Below the pieces are notes generated by a model. The model saw nothing but the letters and a program-made list of their open reading frames with translations, was not told the origin of the DNA and made no database searches. 59,504 bases of DNA, taken from positions 1-59,504 of the IMG/VR virus record IMGVR_UViG_3300015171_000005, one strand, 5' to 3'. Shown here in pieces: positions 3,642 through 53,023 of this stretch. This DNA comes from a virus. Its lineage: Duplodnaviria; Caudoviricetes. Numbering within the stretch: the stretch's first letter is position 1; each line of letters starts with the position of its first letter. The position numbers and the translations under genes were made by a program.

Positions 3642-3810
3642 GGGCCCGAAGGGCCTGCTTTGGGGCCCCCTTCACCGGGAAGGAGGCGAATCCGAAGTGG
3701 GGGGTGGTTTTGGGTCGGGGGAGAGAGGGCCCCGCCTCCCCGTCACTGAGGTACCCCCTTAAAAAAAATTATTTTTTTTGTACGACGGTTGTACTACCGG
3801 GGTAGTACAG
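3642..3810. other. candidate packaging-initiation/terminus region
   Basis: G/C runs, GGTACCCC, A8-TTA-T8 tract and TGTACTACC/GGTAGTACA hairpin in the divergent gap before terS; function is inference. Confidence 0.35.
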
Positions 3811-3825
3811 GAGCTTTTTTGAAAA

Positions 3826-3854
3826 TTGCAATAGGACGATGCTTACAGTATGAT
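3826..3854 (+). promoter_or_regulatory. sigma70-like promoter of the packaging operon
   Basis: TTGCAA-17 nt-TATGAT. Confidence 0.6.
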
Positions 3855-3881
3855 CGGCTCAATATTTTCAACAACTTAGGC

Positions 3882-4505
3882 ATGAATCCTATAGCCGCCA
3901 AGCAATTTGCGATGCGTGCGCCCCGTAACCTTCGGACGAAGAAGGGCAAGGACGCCGTCAAGGAGATCGAAAAAGTCAGGGTGCGTGGACTGCGTGCGCA
4001 TGTCGTCGATGCGCAGAAGCTTCGCGATGTCGAGAAGAAAAACGCCGACCGTTCCCTCACCGACAAGCAGCGCCAGTTCGTGCGCTTCTGGTCTTCGGGC
4101 GAGACGCCGCGCACGGCGTCGATACTGGCGGGCTACAGCGAAGAATCGCAGAGTGTCGTGTGGCGGATGCAGAACGACCCGGCCATTCTCAAGATATACC
4201 GCGAAGAAAAAAAGCTCTACGAAGAAGCCGGGCACATGACGCGCCGTCGTGTGATGAACATGCTGGAGGAAGCCTACAACGACGCGAAGCTGCTCTCCGA
4301 ACCGGCGACCATGGTCGCGGCGGCGCGCGAGCTAGGCAAACTCTGCGGATACTACGAGCCCGACAAGCATGTGCATGTGCACATGGGCGGCAAGTTGATG
4401 GACCGCATGAATTCGCTCTCGGACGCGGAGCTTCTGAAGATCATCAACGAGCCGGAACCCGATACGGTCGAAGGTGAAGTGCTCCAACTAGAGGGCCCGA
4501 CTTGA
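3882..4505 (+). CDS. terS: terminase small subunit
   Basis: LTDKQRQF...A.ILAGYS helix-turn-helix and ELGKLCGYY motifs; overlaps the terL start; start codon uncertain. Confidence 0.85.
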   Translation: MNPIAAKQFAMRAPRNLRTKKGKDAVKEIEKVRVRGLRAHVVDAQKLRDVEKKNADRSLTDKQRQFVRFWSSGETPRTASILAGYSEESQSVVWRMQNDPAILKIYREEKKLYEEAGHMTRRRVMNMLEEAYNDAKLLSEPATMVAAARELGKLCGYYEPDKHVHVHMGGKLMDRMNSLSDAELLKIINEPEPDTVEGEVLQLEGPT

Positions 4506-6973
4506 CGACGCCCGACGAGCTTGTCGCTCGCAAGGAGCTTGCCAATCGAATCTGGGCGCGCCGCCGCTTGCTGGCGTTCATACAGCGGCTCGATCCAGCC
4601 TATCTCGCGGGTTGGGTGCATGAAGATATTTGCAGGCGGCTGGAGCGCTTCAGCGACGACGTGGCGAAGGGCTTGAGCCCGCGCCTCATGATCTTGATGC
4701 CGCCCCGGCACGGCAAGAGCCGGATCGCGTCGATGGCGTTTCCTGCGTGGCACTTGGGACGCCATCCGAATCACGAGTTCATCGCGGCCTCGTACAACGT
4801 AGGTCTAGCGATGGGGTTCTCGCGTAAGGCGCAGGCCGTCATGAACGACCCGCGCTTCCCCTTTGAAGTGAAGCTGGACCCCAATAACCAGTCGGCTGAG
4901 TCGTGGGGCTTGCAGGGCTTCACGGGCGGCTATGTGGCTGCGGGTGTCGGCGGGGGTATCACCGGCAAGGGTGCGCACATCCTCACCATCGACGACCCAA
5001 TCAAGAACGCGGAGGAAGCTGACTCGCTTACCACGCGCGAAGCCCTTTCCGAGTGGTATGGATCGACGGCGTACACGCGCTTGGCCCCCGGAGGGGGCGT
5101 GCTTTTGATTCAGTGCATGACGGGGGATACCCCTGTGCTGCTTCCTGACGGTACGGAAAAGCGGCTGGATGCTATCCGCGCTGGGGATGTGATTGCCACG
5201 TATGAGAATAGTCGAATGACTGCCGCAAGGGTAGTCGCGTGGAGAAGTAATGGTAGTGATAATATCCTGAAAATAACTACGAAGTCTGGTAAAATCGTAC
5301 GAGCTAATGGGCGGCATCCATTCTTGGCCACGACTATTACCGGAGAACTCAAATGGATCAGGGTAAGAAGCTTAAGTACAGCGAACAAAATCGTAACCGT
5401 AAAGGGCAGCGAGGAAAGTGGATCGGAGTGGTCTGCTCTGTTGAAGGGTGCGCAGTACCAGCTAGGTGCCGTGGAATGTGTCACAAGCATTACGCCCGAA
5501 AGAAGTGGGCGGACGGACACCGCCCACCATCCCATAACCCCGAAGCGCTCCGAGAGCGGCATCTCAAACACCGATATGGGATCACCGCAGAGCAGTACGC
5601 CGCGCTTCTTGCCAAACAACAAGGCGCGTGCGCCGTATGTAAGGGAGATGGGTCTAATAACCCCGGAAGATGGAAGTACCGACTCGCCGTCGATCACTGC
5701 CATGAAGGTGGAAAAGTTCGTGGATTGCTCTGCAACGATTGCAACCTCGCAATCGGACATATTAGAACTGAGCCCGTCGCACTTGCCATTGCACGGTACC
5801 TCCGACTTCACGCTGGACGAGATCGTAAGCATCGAGCCTGATGGTGAAGAAGAAGTTTTCGATGTTCAGATTGACCGAACTACAAATTTCATCGCCAACG
5901 GAGTAGTAGCGTCGAACACCTGCTGGCATGATGATGATCTCGCCGGGCGCTTGCAGCAGGCCATGCAGGCTGACTTGAACGACCCCGACGTGGATCGTTT
6001 CGAGATCGTGAAGTACCCGGCCATTGCGGAAGCCGACGAGTGGATCGATTCCGTGACCGACGAGATCGTCCGCGTCGAGACCAAGCGCGCGGTCGTGCGT
6101 GACGACATGGTGGACCCGGCAGTCTGGAGCGCGAAGCGCCCAGCGGCGGTGAACGACGCGCAGATGGAGTTGGTGAAGCAGTTGGGGTTCACGAACTACA
6201 ACCTGAAGCTTCTGCGCGTCAAGGGCGAGCCGCTCCATCCGCAGCGCTACGATCTCACCAAGCTCGCACGGATTCGCAAGGCGCTGTCGAACAGGTTCTG
6301 GTCGGCGTTGTACCAGCAGAATCCGGTGCCTGATGATGGCAGCTACTTCCTGCGCGAGCAGTTCAAGCGCGACAAGACCCCCGACAAGAACGTGTGCAAT
6401 GTGTTCTTGGCGTTTGACTTCGCCATCACCGAGAAACAGGCCAACGACTACACGGTCGGCACGGTCGGGCTTCAGGACTACGACGACACCCTGCATGTCG
6501 CCGACATGGTCCGCTTCAAGACGCAGGATTCTTCGGTGATCGTCGAAGCGATCATCACGCTCATAAAGAAATGGCGCACCACGACCTTGCGCATGGGGTT
6601 CGAGAACGGCCAGATTTTCTTGGGCCTTGAGATGACATTGAAGAAGCGCATGCGGGAAGAGCGCTTGTTCATTCCATACGAAGTGTTGCAGCCCACCACG
6701 GACAAGAAGGTGCGCGCGAGCCCTTTTCAGGCACGCATGCAGCACGGGCGCGTTGCTTTCAAGGAGGGAGCCGAGTGGTTCCCGGTCATGCAGAACGAGA
6801 TGCTGCGCTTTCCTTCGGGCATTCACGACGATATCGTGGATTCGCTCGCGTGGATGGCGCGCTTGGTCACGCAGTACGAGCCCCCACGCAAACCGACACC
6901 CAAGGCCCAGAAGTCATGGCGCGACAAGATTCCCGGCATGGGTCGGCGTAACGCCGGGCCGATGGCGGCTTAA
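4502..6973 (+). CDS. terL: terminase large subunit, interrupted by an intein
   Basis: Walker A MPPRHGKS, Walker B LTIDDPIK, QT.WHDDDLAGR, C-terminal nuclease FP..IHDDIVDS. Confidence 0.97.
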   Translation: MTTPDELVARKELANRIWARRRLLAFIQRLDPAYLAGWVHEDICRRLERFSDDVAKGLSPRLMILMPPRHGKSRIASMAFPAWHLGRHPNHEFIAASYNVGLAMGFSRKAQAVMNDPRFPFEVKLDPNNQSAESWGLQGFTGGYVAAGVGGGITGKGAHILTIDDPIKNAEEADSLTTREALSEWYGSTAYTRLAPGGGVLLIQCMTGDTPVLLPDGTEKRLDAIRAGDVIATYENSRMTAARVVAWRSNGSDNILKITTKSGKIVRANGRHPFLATTITGELKWIRVRSLSTANKIVTVKGSEESGSEWSALLKGAQYQLGAVECVTSITPERSGRTDTAHHPITPKRSESGISNTDMGSPQSSTPRFLPNNKARAPYVREMGLITPEDGSTDSPSITAMKVEKFVDCSATIATSQSDILELSPSHLPLHGTSDFTLDEIVSIEPDGEEEVFDVQIDRTTNFIANGVVASNTCWHDDDLAGRLQQAMQADLNDPDVDRFEIVKYPAIAEADEWIDSVTDEIVRVETKRAVVRDDMVDPAVWSAKRPAAVNDAQMELVKQLGFTNYNLKLLRVKGEPLHPQRYDLTKLARIRKALSNRFWSALYQQNPVPDDGSYFLREQFKRDKTPDKNVCNVFLAFDFAITEKQANDYTVGTVGLQDYDDTLHVADMVRFKTQDSSVIVEAIITLIKKWRTTTLRMGFENGQIFLGLEMTLKKRMREERLFIPYEVLQPTTDKKVRASPFQARMQHGRVAFKEGAEWFPVMQNEMLRFPSGIHDDIVDSLAWMARLVTQYEPPRKPTPKAQKSWRDKIPGMGRRNAGPMAA
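5114..5917 (+). mobile_element. intein (268 aa) in terL
   Basis: Starts CMTGDTPVLLPDG (block A), has RANGRHPF (block B), ends VFDVQID..NFIANGVVASN followed by Thr+1; removal restores LLIQ-TCWHDDDLAGRL. Confidence 0.95.
5353..5841 (+). CDS. endonuclease VII-like (His-Me) homing endonuclease, nested out of frame in the intein
   Basis: GGAGA RBS at 5342-5346; CSVEGC..CRGMCHKHY Zn motif; YGIT.EQY..L...Q.G.CAVC...LAVDHCH..GKVRGLLC..CN.AIG EndoVII signature. Confidence 0.9.
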   Translation: MDQGKKLKYSEQNRNRKGQRGKWIGVVCSVEGCAVPARCRGMCHKHYARKKWADGHRPPSHNPEALRERHLKHRYGITAEQYAALLAKQQGACAVCKGDGSNNPGRWKYRLAVDHCHEGGKVRGLLCNDCNLAIGHIRTEPVALAIARYLRLHAGRDRKHRA

Positions 6974-7224: not shown

Positions 7225-9345
7225 ATGCCTTACAACGCCGAACTTACGAATACCCAGTGGTATCGCTACGCTTGGGTGCGCGATCAGGGACATACCGACT
7301 ATGTTGCCAAGCACGATCGTTGTGAGCGCTTCTTTCGCGGCGACCAGTGGAACCGATCCGACAAGGCGGCGCTCGCGTCGATACGCCGCCCTGCGCTCAC
7401 CATCAACAAGATCATCTCCACCATCGCCAACGTGATGGGAGAGCAGATTTACAACCGCTCCGAGATTTCATACCGCCCGCGTGGCGGTGCGAATGAGACC
7501 ACGGCGGACATTCTCACCAAGGTCTTCAAGCAGATTTCGGATCAGAACCAGTTGGATTGGAAGAGGAGCGACATGTTCGCCGATGGGATCATCGGCTCGC
7601 GCGGGTATCTCGACGTGCGCATGAAGTTCGACGAGAGCATGCAGGGTGATGTCGATATCGTGGGGTTGAACCCCAAGAACGTGCTGCCCGATCCCGATGC
7701 GGATGAGTACGACCCCGACACGTGGAACGAAGTCACCACGACGAAGTGGTTGACGGCTGATGACATCGAGATGCTGTACTCGGCAAAGGATGCCAAGCTC
7801 CTGCGCGGCAAGAACGAGAGTGCGTTTCCGTACGGATACGACTCGGTGGATCACAACCGCGATCGTTTCGCGAACCCCGACACGTACATGAGCATGCTCT
7901 ATGGGTCGGAATTCCAGACCGCCAGCGTGAGCCGTTCGATTCGCGTGATCGAGCGCCAGTACAAGAAGCTCGATTACCAGAAGCACTTCGTCTACCCGAA
8001 GACCGGCGAGTCGCGCGTGATCCCGGCAGCATGGGACGAAGACCGCGTTGCGTTCGTCATGCAGAAATTCGGCCTTCACGTGATTAAGAAGGCCACGCAC
8101 CGCATTCGCTGGACCATCACGGCGGATAACGTCGTGCTGCACGACGAATGGAGCCCGTACAAGCACTTCACCGTGATCCCGTTTTTTCCGTTTTTCCGGC
8201 GCGGCACGACGATCGGGCTGGTCGAGAACCTGACCGATGTGCAGGACTTGCTCAACAAGGCCACGAGCCAAGAGCTTCACATCGTGAATACCACGGCGAA
8301 TTCGGGGTGGAAGATCAAGGCTGGTTCGCTCACCAACATGAGCATGGAAGACCTCGAAGATCGCGGGGCCGAGACCGGGCTCGTGATGGAGATCAACGGC
8401 GACCCGGAAAAGGACGCCGTGAAAATCCAGCCGAACAACACGCCGCAGGGGCTGGACCGGCTTTCGTACAAGGCCGAGCAGGCAATCAAGACGATTTCCG
8501 GCGTATCGGACTCGATGCAGGGGTTCGATCGCGAGGATGTCGCTGCGAAAGCCATCCAGCAGAAGCGCCAAGCGGGAAATACGAATCTCGTGAAGCCGAT
8601 GGACTCGCTCGTGCGGACGGACTATATTCTTGCGCGCAACGTGCTCGATCTCGTGCAGGAGTACTACACGGAAGAGCGCGTGATGACGATCACCAAGGAC
8701 TCGATCACGGGGGAAACGGAGACCTTCACCATCAACGGCATGAGCCCGGAGGGCGAAGTCGTCAATGATTTGATGGCGGGCGAGTTCGAGACCGTGATTT
8801 CGAGCGTGCCGCAGCGCGAGACCCTCGAAGACAGCGAGTTCGACCAGTTGAGCGCGATGAGGAAGGACTTGGGTGTGAAGATTCCCGACTCCGTGCTCAT
8901 CAATGCGTCGCGGCTGCGCAACAAGAAGGAGATCATCACTAACATGGAGGGCGACAAGAACTCCCCGGAAGGCAAGCGTCAGGCAGAATTGCAGGCGCGC
9001 ATGCAGGAAGCCGAAGTCGGCACGGCAGAGGGCGAGCGCAAGGTGAAGGACGCGGATGCTACGCTTCGCACCGAGAAGTCCAAGCAGATCGCCGTGGAGG
9101 CGGGGCTCGCGTTGAGCGCCCCAGCGGAAGCTGGAGCCACGCCGGGGCTCGATGTGGCTGAAGCGCACCGCGAGCACGATAGGAAAGACGCCGAGTCGGA
9201 GGCGAAGATTCACTCCATCCACGAAAAGAGCAATCTGGAGCGTGACAAGGCGATCAATGACGCAAAACTGAAAGCGGAGGCGCAAGCGCAGAAGCTCGCG
9301 CAAGACCGTGTAGCTCGTATGACCCAACCTGAAGGAAACCAATGA
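7225..9345 (+). CDS. portal protein (P22-like, long C-terminal coiled coil)
   Basis: 706 aa after terL; FF.GDQW...RPALTINKI motif. Confidence 0.9.
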   Translation: MPYNAELTNTQWYRYAWVRDQGHTDYVAKHDRCERFFRGDQWNRSDKAALASIRRPALTINKIISTIANVMGEQIYNRSEISYRPRGGANETTADILTKVFKQISDQNQLDWKRSDMFADGIIGSRGYLDVRMKFDESMQGDVDIVGLNPKNVLPDPDADEYDPDTWNEVTTTKWLTADDIEMLYSAKDAKLLRGKNESAFPYGYDSVDHNRDRFANPDTYMSMLYGSEFQTASVSRSIRVIERQYKKLDYQKHFVYPKTGESRVIPAAWDEDRVAFVMQKFGLHVIKKATHRIRWTITADNVVLHDEWSPYKHFTVIPFFPFFRRGTTIGLVENLTDVQDLLNKATSQELHIVNTTANSGWKIKAGSLTNMSMEDLEDRGAETGLVMEINGDPEKDAVKIQPNNTPQGLDRLSYKAEQAIKTISGVSDSMQGFDREDVAAKAIQQKRQAGNTNLVKPMDSLVRTDYILARNVLDLVQEYYTEERVMTITKDSITGETETFTINGMSPEGEVVNDLMAGEFETVISSVPQRETLEDSEFDQLSAMRKDLGVKIPDSVLINASRLRNKKEIITNMEGDKNSPEGKRQAELQARMQEAEVGTAEGERKVKDADATLRTEKSKQIAVEAGLALSAPAEAGATPGLDVAEAHREHDRKDAESEAKIHSIHEKSNLERDKAINDAKLKAEAQAQKLAQDRVARMTQPEGNQ

Positions 9346-52867: not shown

Positions 52868-52945
52868 TGGTGCCCGGAGAAGGGTTCGAACCTTCGACCT
52901 ACCGCTTACAAGGCGGTTGCTCTACCACTGAGCTATATACCGGGC
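52868..52945 (-). tRNA. tRNA-Thr(UGU) with 3 extra nt at the acceptor/D-arm junction
   Basis: D arm GCTC/GAGC, anticodon arm ACCGC-CTTGTAA-GCGGT, T loop TTCGAAC, encoded CCA. Confidence 0.85.
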
Positions 52946-52946
52946 A

Positions 52947-53023
52947 TGGGGGTGACGGACGAGATTCGAACTCGCAACCACCGGAACCACAATCCGGGGC
53001 TCCACCAATTGAGCTACCGTCAC
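52947..53023 (-). tRNA. tRNA-His(GUG), atypical ends
   Basis: Acceptor GTGACGG/CCGTCAC, anticodon arm CCGGA-TTGTGGT-TCCGG, C73; T at -1 and a CCCA tail. Confidence 0.88.

What the first reader, a model, noticed from the sequence alone, without database searches (positions are those of the whole stretch)
5114..5917. TerL intein whose homing endonuclease is a separate gene overprinted in another reading frame
Seen: the 268-aa intein has both splicing halves (Cys1...Asn, Thr+1). Its central region in the TerL frame is Ser/Thr/Pro-rich and has no LAGLIDADG or HNH motif. The same DNA in a shifted frame on the same strand (5353-5841) encodes a complete 162-aa EndoVII-type nuclease with an N-terminal Cys/His Zn motif. 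It has its own GGAGA Shine-Dalgarno (5342-5346) and stops inside intein block F, so both frames stay open for 489 nt. Established: canonical mobile inteins carry the endonuclease in frame and release it by splicing. Inference: this is a dual-coding mobile element in which the intein excises an overprinted linker while the nuclease is translated independently, uncoupling homing from terminase synthesis. I do not know of a description of this architecture but cannot check the literature.
Basis: partly seen in the sequence, partly recalled or inferred. Interest (0 to 1): 0.93.

Follow-up and report, generated by a model that had tools for sequence, protein, structure and literature searches.

The report
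Terminase intein with overprinted homing nuclease
A phage packaging gene carries a self-splicing protein insert whose DNA also encodes, in a shifted reading frame, a separate DNA-cutting enzyme; the arrangement is real and widespread but was first described in a 2025 preprint.

Summary
TerL (4502-6973) carries a 268-aa class-1 intein (5114-5917). Its -1 frame holds an intact 162-aa Endonuclease VII/HNH ORF (5353-5841; Pfam E 1.2e-20).

It is not an assembly error. The same frame offset, TerL site and junctions recur in 99 loci: 6 named Gordonia/Mycobacterium phages, IMG/VR contigs and genomes labelled as several bacterial phyla. No locus has the nuclease in frame.

Selection acts on the nuclease frame (dN/dS 0.09-0.30) and not on the TerL-frame loop (1.1-1.9). 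AlphaFold models that loop as disordered inside a mini-intein fold.

The start codon overlaps the intein's invariant Trp codon. A Shine-Dalgarno core lies in Gly-Glu codons, with synonymous bias towards GGA. Many members also carry a -10-like box about 60 nt upstream.

The architecture is already in print for actinobacteriophage TerL inteins (bioRxiv 10.1101/2025.01.02.630785). This is therefore a new member of a known kind, apparently in a KPP25-like phage outside the actinophages. Expression, splicing and cleavage remain untested.

The parts
4502..6973 (+). Large terminase subunit (TerL) gene, uninterrupted 823-codon frame including the intein
   Evidence: ORF; Pfam Terminase_6N E 1e-08, Terminase_6C E 3.7e-08; 44% identical (225/510 aligned) to intein-less Pseudomonas phage KPP25 TerL
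5114..5917 (+). Class-1 intein, 268 aa: Cys1 ... Asn268, Thr+1; inserted at GVLLIQ|TCWHDDD
   Evidence: Pfam Intein_splicing E 2e-16; same site in all 92 parsed relatives and the 10 first loci; Foldseek hits to mini-inteins, TMt 0.75-0.86
5114..5422 (+). N-terminal splicing half of the Hint fold (intein residues 1-103)
   Evidence: AlphaFold pLDDT 88-97 per 10-residue block, beta strands; invariant C1, H68, W81
5423..5746 (+). Overprinted TerL-frame loop (intein residues 104-211), Ser/Thr/Pro/Ala-rich
   Evidence: pLDDT <50 and no secondary structure; pairwise identity 19-53% against 40-75% for the nuclease frame on the same DNA; apparent dN/dS 1.1-1.9
5747..5917 (+). C-terminal splicing part (residues 212-268, strands from about residue 232, ...EEVFDVQIDRTTNFIANGVVASN)
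   Evidence: pLDDT 92-97 from about residue 231; invariant V248 F249 D250 ... N268
5353..5841 (+). Nuclease gene in the -1 frame, 162 aa, ATG start, TGA stop
   Evidence: Pfam Endonuclease_7 E 1.2e-20; 56-74% identical to IMG/VR relatives and 40-48% to actinophage copies; dN/dS 0.09-0.30; AlphaFold mean pLDDT 86.5
5413..5532 (+). N-terminal Cys/His-rich domain of the nuclease (about residues 21-60); invariant C28, C33, C43
   Evidence: Invariant columns of A2; pLDDT 89-93; duplicated in relatives whose inteins are 297-305 aa. Zinc binding and DNA recognition are inferred.
5557..5805 (+). Endonuclease VII / beta-beta-alpha-Me catalytic core (nuclease residues 69-151): CxxC ... DHCH ... GKVRGLLCNDCN
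   Evidence: Pfam stretch 69-151; the genome search match 5557-5805; profile hit to T4 endonuclease VII 1e7d, E 2.4e-08
5342..5346 (+). Shine-Dalgarno core GGAGA, written in the intein codons Gly-Glu (GGA GAA)
   Evidence: Sequence; an SD core lies at -16..-4 in 53 of 65 family representatives against 10.7% of 13-nt windows in the TerL ORFs; the Gly codon is GGA in 43 of 60 against 17% elsewhere in the N-splicing domain
5353..5356 (+). ATGG: nuclease start ATG (5353-5355) overlapping the intein's invariant Trp81 codon TGG (5354-5356)
   Evidence: Sequence; an ATG or GTG overlaps this Trp codon at intein nt 236/239 in 91 of 92 parsed relatives
5267..5295 (+). Candidate internal promoter: CTGAAA - 17 nt - TGgTAAAAT; the -10 hexamer starts at the 3rd base of the Gly59 codon (lead, not shown)
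   Evidence: Consensus scan hit (region total 2 against 1.4 expected, so not significant alone); a TAnnnT hexamer at this exact position in 40 of 64 representatives; GGT 44/64 against 30% and AGA 16/22 Arg against 19% background

Best explanation
The window is a metagenomic phage contig whose essential TerL gene carries a mobile class-1 intein. The intein protein is effectively a mini-intein: a Hint fold of about 160 residues interrupted by a disordered loop of about 108 residues. That loop has no function of its own. It is the read-through of a separate gene on the same strand in the -1 frame, which encodes a 162-aa Endonuclease VII / HNH-type nuclease with an N-terminal Cys-rich, probably zinc-binding DNA-recognition domain.

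The nuclease is most likely translated independently. Its ATG overlaps the intein's invariant Trp81 codon (aATGg), and its Shine-Dalgarno (GGAGA) is written in the preceding Gly-Glu codons. It may also be transcribed from a -10-like box embedded in the Gly59 codon region.

Inferred mechanism: during mixed infection the nuclease cuts intein-less TerL alleles at or near the conserved ...VLxIQ|T(C/R/W)WHDDD coding sequence. Recombinational repair then copies intein plus nuclease into the empty allele. Protein splicing removes the intein and its passenger loop, so terminase function is preserved.

Shown here: both ORFs and their domains, conservation of the frame and junctions across 99 loci, frame-specific selection, the predicted folds, sporadic presence among related TerLs, and local intein/extein tree conflict. 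Inferred: translation from 5353, splicing, the cleavage target and promoter use.
For: (1) Domains: Intein_splicing E 2e-16 and Endonuclease_7 E 1.2e-20 in different frames of the same DNA.
(2) Conservation: the nuclease sits at frame offset +2 in all 10 first loci, namely the window, 3 IMG/VR contigs and 6 named Gordonia/Mycobacterium phages. It does so in 95 of 97 further loci found with intein-only patterns, with 0 in frame and 0 antisense. After removing 3 duplicate contigs there are 99 loci, 84 distinct intein DNAs and 65 nuclease clusters at 80% identity, with no stop in either frame from the chosen start. The chosen start in L094 lies downstream of a nonsense codon.
(3) Selection: substitutions peak at nuclease codon position 3, for example 45/47/98 for window against L008. 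Nei-Gojobori dN/dS is 0.09-0.30 in the nuclease frame and 1.1-1.9 in the TerL frame over 8 pairs. Amino-acid identity is 40-75% against 19-53%.
(4) Structure: nuclease mean pLDDT 86.5. The top PDB folds are T4 endonuclease VII, probability 1.0, and the profile hit to 1e7d has E 2.4e-08 with CxxC/DH.H/CN aligned. In the intein, residues 104-211 have pLDDT <50 while the rest matches mini-inteins at E 1e-8 to 1e-6.
(5) Initiation: the start overlaps the Trp codon in 91 of 92 loci. An SD core is present in 53 of 65 representatives against a 10.7% background, and GGA is used in 43 of 60 against 17%. A slippery heptamer occurs in only 4 of 65, at scattered positions, and the nuclease frame is closed 0-93 nt upstream of the start.
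(6) Mobility: 11 of 11 nearest C-extein relatives and KPP25 lack the intein at a contiguous ...IQ|TCWHDDD site. The extein tree groups the window with L008/L010/L015/L022 (support 1.0), whereas the intein tree groups it with L012 (0.935) and L013 (0.992). Intein GC is 0.526 (GC3 0.48-0.52) against 0.60-0.63 (GC3 0.79-0.83) for the exteins.
Against: The window's intein ends ...ASN and so lacks the penultimate His found in 86 of 92 relatives. From recall, some active inteins lack it, but splicing could be slowed.

Foldseek support for the Endo VII fold is weak numerically (E 0.011-0.029, TM 0.29-0.35).

Extein and intein patristic distances correlate (Spearman 0.72), so much of the family's history looks vertical or local. 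Current homing activity is not demonstrated.

Given the nuclease protein, an open TerL frame is not improbable in a single locus (P 0.105 for the window).

The codon-bias tests treat 64-65 related sequences as independent, so their P values are overstated. The promoter-like box is absent from all 6 actinophage representatives, and the scan of the region is not above shuffles.

Only the best 80 of 249 IMG/VR relatives were examined.
Confidence: 0.8

Rival explanations
1. Assembly or sequencing artefact: two compensating frameshift errors displaced a nuclease domain that is really in frame with the intein.
For: The window is a metagenome-assembled viral contig, where indel errors can occur.
Against: The same +2 offset, the same start at intein nt 236/239 and a stop 43-100 nt before the intein end occur in finished genomes of 6 named phages and in 95 of 97 independent loci; none has the nuclease in frame.
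Confidence: 0.01
2. The nuclease is made by programmed -1 ribosomal frameshifting from the TerL frame, as a fusion of N-extein and N-intein to the nuclease, not by independent initiation.
For: The nuclease frame is exactly the -1 frame of TerL. In the window it is open for 45 nt upstream of the ATG (5308-5352).
Against: A canonical X_XXY_YYZ heptamer occurs in only 4 of 65 representatives, at non-conserved positions, and none in the window. In 7 of 65 representatives a stop codon directly precedes the start. A conserved ATG/GTG (91 of 92) and synonymous bias towards an SD are not needed under frameshifting.
Confidence: 0.03
3. The nuclease ORF in this phage is an unexpressed or inactive relic, and the intein is now inherited only vertically.
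For: Extein and intein distances correlate at 0.72. One relative (L094) has a nonsense codon in the nuclease frame while the intein frame stays open. The preprint found the distribution of the Endo VII inteins 'more ambiguous' (section 15).
Against: The window's ORF is intact, with ATG, SD, CxxC/DHCH/CNDCN motifs and a confident fold. dN/dS against its relatives is 0.09-0.18. The intein's GC3 of about 0.5 against 0.8 for the exteins suggests acquisition too recent for the composition to have converged. The intein tree conflicts with the extein tree around the window.
Confidence: 0.06
4. The nuclease is domesticated and serves the phage, either as an HNH partner of the terminase or as a branch-resolving enzyme for packaging like T4 gp49, rather than driving homing.
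For: Its catalytic core is homologous to T4 endonuclease VII. From recall, T4 endonuclease VII clears branched DNA before packaging, and HNH proteins assist some terminases. Its location inside TerL would give co-expression.
Against: It is present only where the intein is present: 11 of 11 close intein-less TerL relatives and KPP25 lack it at this site. Its phylogeny departs locally from the TerL extein. Its composition is foreign to the host gene. The loci of the Mycobacterium phages Phlyer, Pipefish, Vincenzo and phi1_186018 carry a separate annotated RuvC-like resolvase next to TerL.
Confidence: 0.06

Closest known systems
[quoted passage not shown]
   Same: Same family. The intein sits at the same TerL site and the Endo VII-type nuclease is in 'frame 3' (+2) relative to the intein. 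The window nuclease is 48% identical to the copy in their cluster-47 phages (Sedona, Keitabear, Affeca, Angelicage) and 40-44% to the other 5 actinophage loci compared.
   Different: The window is an environmental contig whose portal and TerL extein resemble Pseudomonas phage KPP25 (45% and 44%), not actinophages. The preprint surveyed PhagesDB only and calls the type rare. Its main text has no occurrence of promoter, start codon, ribosom- or metagenom-. Its supplements could not be read.
[quoted passage not shown]
   Same: A contiguous intein whose homing endonuclease is read in another frame; it is proposed to be a secondary invasion of a mini-intein by a free-standing endonuclease gene.
   Different: Different host gene and organisms. 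According to the 2025 preprint, the dnaX case is an antisense LAGLIDADG enzyme, not a same-strand Endo VII type.
ShiLan element: out-of-frame HNH endonuclease inserted in a phage DNA methylase (Genes 2025, PMC11855218; abstract and section 4.3 read)
   Same: A nuclease gene hidden in a shifted frame of an insertion that stays open in the host gene's frame.
   Different: ShiLan has no splicing domain and is thought to stay in the protein as a loop. Its authors found no ribosome-binding site and proposed leaderless GTG initiation. Here a Hint fold flanks the insert and an SD is detectable.
Fractured genes: split inteins with a free-standing endonuclease gene between the halves (Dassa et al. 2009; known to me only through the preprint's discussion, and recall)
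   Same: Splicing halves flank an independently translated homing endonuclease gene.
   Different: There the host gene is broken into two ORFs and spliced in trans. Here the host frame reads through the nuclease gene and splicing is in cis.
Canonical mobile inteins with an in-frame LAGLIDADG or HNH domain
   Same: The Hint splicing fold is interrupted at the same structural position by the endonuclease-coding DNA, and the inferred homing cycle is the same.
   Different: The nuclease here is not part of the intein polypeptide, so it is not released by splicing and its amount need not follow that of the host protein.
Phage T4 endonuclease VII (gp49; PDB 1e7d, 1en7, 2qnf)
   Same: The catalytic beta-beta-alpha-Me core with CxxC...CxxC zinc ligands and the DH.H / CN motif aligns, and these are the top fold hits.
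   Different: T4 gp49 is a free-standing structure-specific resolvase. The window protein has an extra N-terminal Cys-rich domain, matches only residues 9-70 of gp49 by sequence, and shows weak whole-chain fold similarity (TM about 0.3).

Membership tests
Class-1 intein (Hint fold) | N-terminal nucleophile (Cys/Ser1) | tested here: met
   Cys at 5114-5116; C1 is invariant in 60 aligned inteins
Class-1 intein (Hint fold) | Block B His (TxxH-type motif) | tested here: met
   H68 is invariant within ...RANGRHPF.... The residue three positions before it is Asn (N65, invariant) rather than Thr. The motif name is recalled.
Class-1 intein (Hint fold) | C-terminal Asn followed by a Ser/Thr/Cys +1 nucleophile | tested here: met
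   N268 then Thr (ASN|TCWH); N268 is invariant
Class-1 intein (Hint fold) | Penultimate His | tested here: not met
   The window has Ser267 (ASN). 86 of 92 relatives have SHN; L012 (ASN) and L013 (SSN) also lack it. This residue is common but, from recall, not obligatory.
Class-1 intein (Hint fold) | Hint fold | tested here: met
   AlphaFold pLDDT 88-97 outside residues 104-230; Foldseek hits Ssp DnaB, Npu DnaB and Mtu RecA mini-inteins, E 1.5e-08 to 1e-06, TMt 0.75-0.86
Class-1 intein (Hint fold) | Protein splicing activity | not testable with these tools
   Inferred from TerL being essential and its frame being open in 99 of 99 loci
Endonuclease VII / HNH (Pfam PF02945) | Profile match above the curated cut-off | tested here: met
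   73.6 bits against a cut-off of 23.6, E 1.2e-20, profile positions 2-81 of 82
Endonuclease VII / HNH (Pfam PF02945) | Zinc ligands CxxC...CxxC and catalytic DH.H ... N | tested here: met
   CAVC ... VDHCH ... CNDCN aligns to T4 endonuclease VII residues 9-70. C93, C96, D114, H115, C130 and N131 are invariant; H117 and C127 are nearly invariant. Residue roles are recalled.
Endonuclease VII / HNH (Pfam PF02945) | Fold similarity to solved Endo VII | tested here: inconclusive
   The top three PDB hits are T4 endonuclease VII with probability 0.99-1.00, but E 0.011-0.029 and TM 0.29-0.35
Endonuclease VII / HNH (Pfam PF02945) | Nuclease activity | not testable with these tools
   -
Out-of-frame Endo VII-HEN TerL intein (Gosselin et al. 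2025) | Endo VII-like ORF in frame 3 (+2) relative to the intein, within the region between the splicing blocks | tested here: met
   5353-4502 = 851 = 3n+2. The ORF starts 239 nt into the intein and ends 76 nt before its end
Out-of-frame Endo VII-HEN TerL intein (Gosselin et al. 2025) | Homology of intein and nuclease to the described actinophage copies, at the same TerL site | tested here: met
   Against Sedona: nuclease 48%, N-splicing half 55%, site ...|CMTGD...N|T.WH
Out-of-frame Endo VII-HEN TerL intein (Gosselin et al. 2025) | Actinobacteriophage host (the scope of the survey, not a mechanistic feature) | tested here: not met
   The best portal hits are Pseudomonas phages KPP25/phiR18 (45%), Acidovorax AP1 and an Aeromonas phage. 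None of the 15 listed records (of 74 matching) and none of the 10 genus names tallied is an actinophage; 6 further organism names were not shown. The host itself is unknown.
Homing endonuclease gene (functional definition) | Sporadic presence among closely related host-gene alleles | tested here: met
   11 of 11 nearest C-extein relatives (41-55% identity) and KPP25 are intein-less, whereas L008, L010, L015 and L022 in the same extein clade carry the intein
Homing endonuclease gene (functional definition) | Element phylogeny incongruent with the host gene | tested here: inconclusive
   Local conflict around the window with support 0.94-1.0, but overall Spearman 0.72. No topology test was run.
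Homing endonuclease gene (functional definition) | Cleavage of the empty allele and copying of the element | not testable with these tools
   -

The most novel reading that the evidence does not exclude
The shifted-frame arrangement is not a rare, transient product of a recent nuclease invasion, as the 2025 preprint suggests. It is a single, old and co-adapted 'gene within an intein' that has spread among phages whose genome records are labelled Pseudomonadota, Bacillota, Actinomycetota, Chloroflexota and Verrucomicrobiota. The intein's own codons supply all the expression signals of the nuclease. The Gly59-Lys/Arg-Ile codons spell a -10 box (TA[AG]AAT), Gly-Glu spells the Shine-Dalgarno, and the invariant Trp81 codon carries the start. 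The two proteins also divide the DNA between them, each being disordered where the other is folded. This would let the nuclease be made on its own schedule, independent of late TerL synthesis.
Probability: 0.4. Interest if true: 0.65.

Novelty: new member of a known kind. Interest (0 to 1): 0.5.

Why it matters
How inteins acquired their homing endonucleases is an old question: did splicing come first, followed by invasion by a free-standing endonuclease gene? A contiguous intein that still carries its nuclease as a separate, overlapping gene is the predicted intermediate between mini-inteins, split 'fractured' genes and canonical fused inteins.

This window shows that the type recently reported in actinophages also occurs in an apparently proteobacterial phage. 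The comparative set assembled here (99 loci, 65 nuclease clusters) indicates that it is widespread and uniform rather than rare. It also shows measurable selection on one frame and on synonymous sites that form translation signals and possibly transcription signals.

On the practical side, gene callers do not report the nuclease, because it is nested in TerL. Such genes are therefore missed systematically in phage annotation.

Tried and rejected
1. Antisense ORF 5110-5832 (240 aa, no Pfam hit). It is a by-product. The antisense frame complementary to the nuclease codons stays open in 36-86% of synonymous resamplings and is open in 6 of 10 loci.

2. Terminator-like GC hairpin at 5084-5098, just upstream of the insertion site. 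I considered it as a structure-specific target for an Endo VII-type enzyme. It is not conserved: the best perfect stem is 2-6 bp across 75 loci (3-6 bp in the 18 printed), at shifting places. It follows from the Ala-Pro-Gly-Gly-Gly codons.

3. Programmed -1 frameshift. No conserved slippery site was found.

4. Near-identical phage genomes. Megablast of window 1-25000 against 50,697 phage records found nothing. blastn of TerL found only short 66-77% stretches.

5. Kelley et al. 2016 (PMC5050341). Six terms were searched in the main text; there was no mention of Pipefish, Phlyer, endonuclease VII or an alternative frame. PMC3029335 mentions only a free-standing Endo VII-like protein in phage LeBron.

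6. Novelty searches. In the listings, only the 2025 preprint combines Endo VII, intein and terminase as its topic. The other papers were judged from titles and abstracts only. The library lacks most subscription journals, and supplements were closed, so the preprint's supplementary tables (cluster lists) were not seen.

7. The promoter scan alone gave 2 sites against 1.4 +/- 1.1 in shuffles, which is not significant. The promoter lead rests on positional conservation and is kept as a lead only.

8. Rows dropped. In one search, 5 of 97 loci were not parsed by my motif patterns. L050 is cut by its contig end. L078 is a regular member in a TerL with a second intein. L100 is regular by its printed C-terminal junction, and one search found the nuclease in frame +2. 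L107 and L108 are different mini-inteins without a nuclease. L019, L043 and L044 were removed as the same contigs as L010, L008 and L009. L027 was not parsed. In one search the Vincenzo (L006) start was wrongly set to TTG 1965. The family-typical GTG 1857 (offset 239) was used from then on, so the start tally should read 52 ATG and 13 GTG, and the SD count may shift by one. L094 was left out of alignment A2 because of its nonsense codon. In one search it still passed the 'no internal stop' check, because its chosen start lies downstream of that codon.

9. Not done: a topology (AU) test, the remaining 169 IMG/VR relatives, the metagenome-contig collection, and complex prediction of a nuclease dimer.

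Full report
**Observation.** The window is a 59,504-base IMG/VR virus record, classed as linear with CheckV completeness 89%.
- The ORF 4502-6973 (+) encodes an 823-aa large terminase with Terminase_6N, Terminase_6C and an Intein_splicing domain.
- The intein runs from Cys (5114) to Asn (5915-5917), 268 aa, followed by Thr. The junctions read GVLLIQ|CMTGD...VVASN|TCWHDDD.
- The frame offset by +2 (the -1 frame) holds an ATG-started 162-codon ORF, 5353-5841. It matches Pfam Endonuclease_7 at E 1.2e-20, 73.6 bits against a cut-off of 23.6 (confirmed at 5557-5805).
- GGAGA lies at 5342-5346, 6 nt before the ATG.
- The nuclease stop is 76 nt before the intein end.

**Not an artefact.** tblastn of the 162-aa protein against 50,697 phage records matched 1,507 records. 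All of the best 39 lie inside terminase genes of Gordonia and Mycobacterium phages at 41-48% identity.
- In the six I fetched (Sedona, Nordenberg, Phlyer, Pipefish, Vincenzo, phi1_186018), the match is at offset 3n+2 from the annotated TerL start. TerL is uninterrupted, and the intein sits at the same site.
- Three IMG/VR contigs with 56-62% identical nucleases show the same arrangement.
- I then searched with an alignment of the intein only; the patterns came from its N-terminal splicing half, so the search was blind to the nuclease frame. IMG/VR held 249 relatives, of which the best 80 were returned. The species-representative genomes held 17.
- An HMM of the nuclease, run on all six frames of these 97 loci, hit frame +2 in 95, the intein frame in 0 and the antisense strand in 0. 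The two misses (L107, L108) are different mini-inteins.
- Of 92 loci that my patterns parsed, all share the site hhhh[Q/M/...]|CMTGDT...N|T[RW]W. In 91 an ATG or GTG lies at intein nucleotide 236 or 239, and every nuclease stop lies 43-100 nt before the intein end.
- After removing three duplicate contigs there are 99 loci, 84 distinct intein DNAs and 65 nuclease clusters at 80% identity. None has a stop in either frame from the chosen start. In one locus (L094) that start lies downstream of a nonsense codon in the nuclease frame, while its intein frame stays open.

**Which frame is under selection.**
- On the same DNA, pairwise amino-acid identity is 40-75% in the nuclease frame and 19-53% in the TerL frame (divergent pairs).
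- Substitutions concentrate at nuclease codon position 3, which is TerL position 2: 45/47/98 for window against L008 and 27/21/58 for L008 against L010.
- Nei-Gojobori dN/dS over eight pairs is 0.09-0.30 in the nuclease frame and 1.1-1.9 in the TerL frame. Values in overlapping frames are biased, but the contrast is clear.
- The TerL frame needs little help to stay open. Synonymous resampling of the nuclease protein leaves it stop-free in 1-60% of trials per locus, 10.5% for the window, with 0.5-3 stops expected. Stop avoidance is therefore cheap. The evidence for it is the 99-of-99 count, not the single locus.

**Structures.**
- With 59 relatives aligned, the nuclease model has mean pLDDT 86.5. 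Residues 1-20 and the last 8 or so are poorly defined.
- Its best PDB fold matches are the three T4 endonuclease VII entries (probability 0.99-1.00, but E 0.011-0.029 and TM about 0.3), followed by Hpy99I.
- A profile search hits T4 endonuclease VII at E 2.4e-08, aligning CxxC, DH.H and GKVRGLLCN.CN.
- An N-terminal Cys-rich module (invariant C28, C33, C43) is confidently folded. It is duplicated in relatives whose inteins are 297-305 aa. I infer zinc-dependent DNA recognition.
- The intein model (60 sequences) has pLDDT 88-97 for residues 1-103 and from about 231 to 268. Residues 104-211 have pLDDT <50 and no secondary structure.
- The intein model matches mini-inteins (Ssp DnaB, Npu DnaB, Mtu RecA) with target TM 0.75-0.86.
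- Nuclease residue n overlaps intein residue of about 80+n. The disordered ends of the nuclease therefore lie over folded intein strands, and the folded nuclease lies over the disordered loop.

**Expression signals (new here as far as my searches show).**
- The start codon overlaps the intein's invariant Trp81 codon (aATGg in the window; cgGTGg in Phlyer) in 91 of 92 loci.
- A GGAG/GAGG/AGGA core lies at -16..-4 in 53 of 65 representatives, against 10.7% of 13-nt windows in the TerL ORFs.
- That core is spelled by Gly-Glu codons. The Gly codon is GGA in 43 of 60, against 17% of other Gly codons in the same domain and 11% in the exteins.
- Canonical slippery heptamers occur in 4 of 65 representatives, at scattered positions. 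The nuclease frame is closed 0-93 nt upstream of the start. Independent initiation is therefore the best reading.
- A further lead: 60-63 nt upstream of the start, a hexamer beginning at the third base of the nearly invariant Gly59 codon reads TAAAAT, TAGAAT or TAAGAT in 33 of 64 representatives. It has the TAnnnT form with at least 4 of 6 matches to TATAAT in 40 of 64.
- At that spot GGT is used in 44 of 64 (background 30%), and AGA in 16 of 22 Arg codons (background 19%). AAA is not enriched (P 0.22).
- In the window the element reads CTGAAA-17-TGgTAAAAT (5267-5295), which the consensus scan also lists.
- Caveats: the representatives are related, so the Fisher P values are overstated. All 6 actinophage representatives lack the box. 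Nothing shows that it fires.

**Mobility.**
- KPP25 TerL, and 11 of 11 nearest C-extein relatives in IMG/VR (41-55% identity), have a contiguous ...VLxIQ|T[CWR]WHDDD site with no intein (...VLLIN|TRWHDDD in KPP25). Their DNA matches the window's flanks at 12-15 of 18 and 15-18 of 21 positions.
- In FastTree trees of 56 representatives, the window's exteins group with L008, L010, L015 and L022 (support 1.0). Its intein plus nuclease groups with L012 (0.935) and L013 (0.992). L012 has a C-extein only 42% identical but a nuclease 74% identical.
- Overall the extein and intein distances correlate (Spearman 0.72), so much of the history is vertical or between related phages.
- The intein is compositionally foreign to its host gene. 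GC is 0.526 against 0.60-0.63. GC3 is 0.48 (N-splicing half) and 0.52 (nuclease) against 0.79-0.83.

**Context.**
- The portal protein (7225-9345) is closest to Pseudomonas phages KPP25/phiR18 (45%), Acidovorax AP1 (39%) and an Aeromonas phage. No actinophage appears among the 15 listed records or the 10 genus names tallied. A Gram-negative host is therefore likely, by inference.
- Genome records carrying the element are titled Sulfuritalea, Oleiphilaceae, Kistimonas, Gallionellaceae, Caulobacteraceae, Anaerolineae, Chloroflexota, Oribacterium, Dysosmobacter, Clostridiaceae, Mycolicibacterium, Opitutaceae, one 'uncultured bacterium' bin and one archaeal bin. Most are MAG bins, where phage contigs can be mis-binned.

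**Literature.**
- The architecture is in print. [quoted passage not shown] It is one of four non-canonical types that together comprise 63 inteins across four host protein types, TerL among them. They name Sedona, Keitabear, Affeca and 'Angelicase', and call this the first report. They propose invasion of an intein by a free-standing endonuclease gene (abstract, sections 8 and 15, and passages).
- Related cases are the ShiLan out-of-frame HNH (PMC11855218) and the cyanobacterial dnaX intein (bioRxiv 10.64898/2026.09.14.751524; abstract).
- The preprint's main text does not mention metagenomes, promoters, start codons or ribosome binding. I could not read its supplements.

**Verdict.** This is a real, well-conserved dual-coding mobile element and a new member of a recently described kind.
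- its presence outside actinophages;
- the size and uniformity of the family;
- frame-specific selection;
- the expression signals embedded in intein codons.

Noticed in passing
window 5110-5832 (-): A 240-aa antisense ORF spans almost the whole intein and has no Pfam match. Resampling shows this antisense frame stays open in 36-86% of synonymous recodings of the nuclease, and it is open in 6 of 10 loci, so it is a by-product.
   Followed up: yes
window 5084-5098 (+): A perfect 6-bp GC hairpin followed by a T-rich tail lies inside TerL, 16 nt before the intein insertion site. It is not conserved in relatives and follows from Ala-Pro-Gly-Gly-Gly codons.
   Followed up: yes
window 52872-53023 (-): Two adjacent tRNA genes, tRNA-Thr(TGT) and tRNA-His(GTG).
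   Followed up: no
window 3789-4505 (+): A 238-aa ORF directly upstream overlaps the TerL start by 4 nt. By position it may be the small terminase subunit. TerL itself starts with TTG in the ORF listing.
   Followed up: no
L078:1163-4408: A TerL with two inteins. An upstream one ends ...FFANGLLVHN|CAIIDDP, next to the Walker-B-like motif. The second is the family intein with its shifted-frame nuclease at the usual site.
   Followed up: partly
L094:2501-3316: A family member (uncultured bacterium bin) whose nuclease frame has one nonsense codon (...HYRR*MWADG...) while the intein frame is open. It is either a decaying copy or a sequencing error.
   Followed up: partly
L107:1229-3790: A TerL in a Geobacter-labelled MAG with two Hint-type domains (Hint module at 233-354, Intein_splicing at 434-573). 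The tblastn match to the family's N-terminal half (...TIIVLH|CMTGDTPV, query residues 1-95) starts at about residue 425, so the related one is a mini-intein of about 140 aa with no nuclease hit. It may be a nuclease-less relative at the same kind of site.
   Followed up: partly
L049, L052, L055, L063, L067-L072, L082, L087-L091, L104, L106; also L006 (Vincenzo): A subfamily with inteins of 297-305 aa, whose nucleases (184-200 aa) carry a second copy of the N-terminal Cys-rich module.
   Followed up: partly
L098 and L099: Records titled Oribacterium sp. and Dysosmobacter sp., from one isolate series, carry elements with identical coordinates, junctions and HMM scores. This may be the same phage in both, or cross-contamination.
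   Followed up: no
L006 (NC_028934.1) and L002 (NC_012027.1): Database annotators already flagged these. Neither record annotates the shifted-frame ORF as a gene.
   Followed up: no
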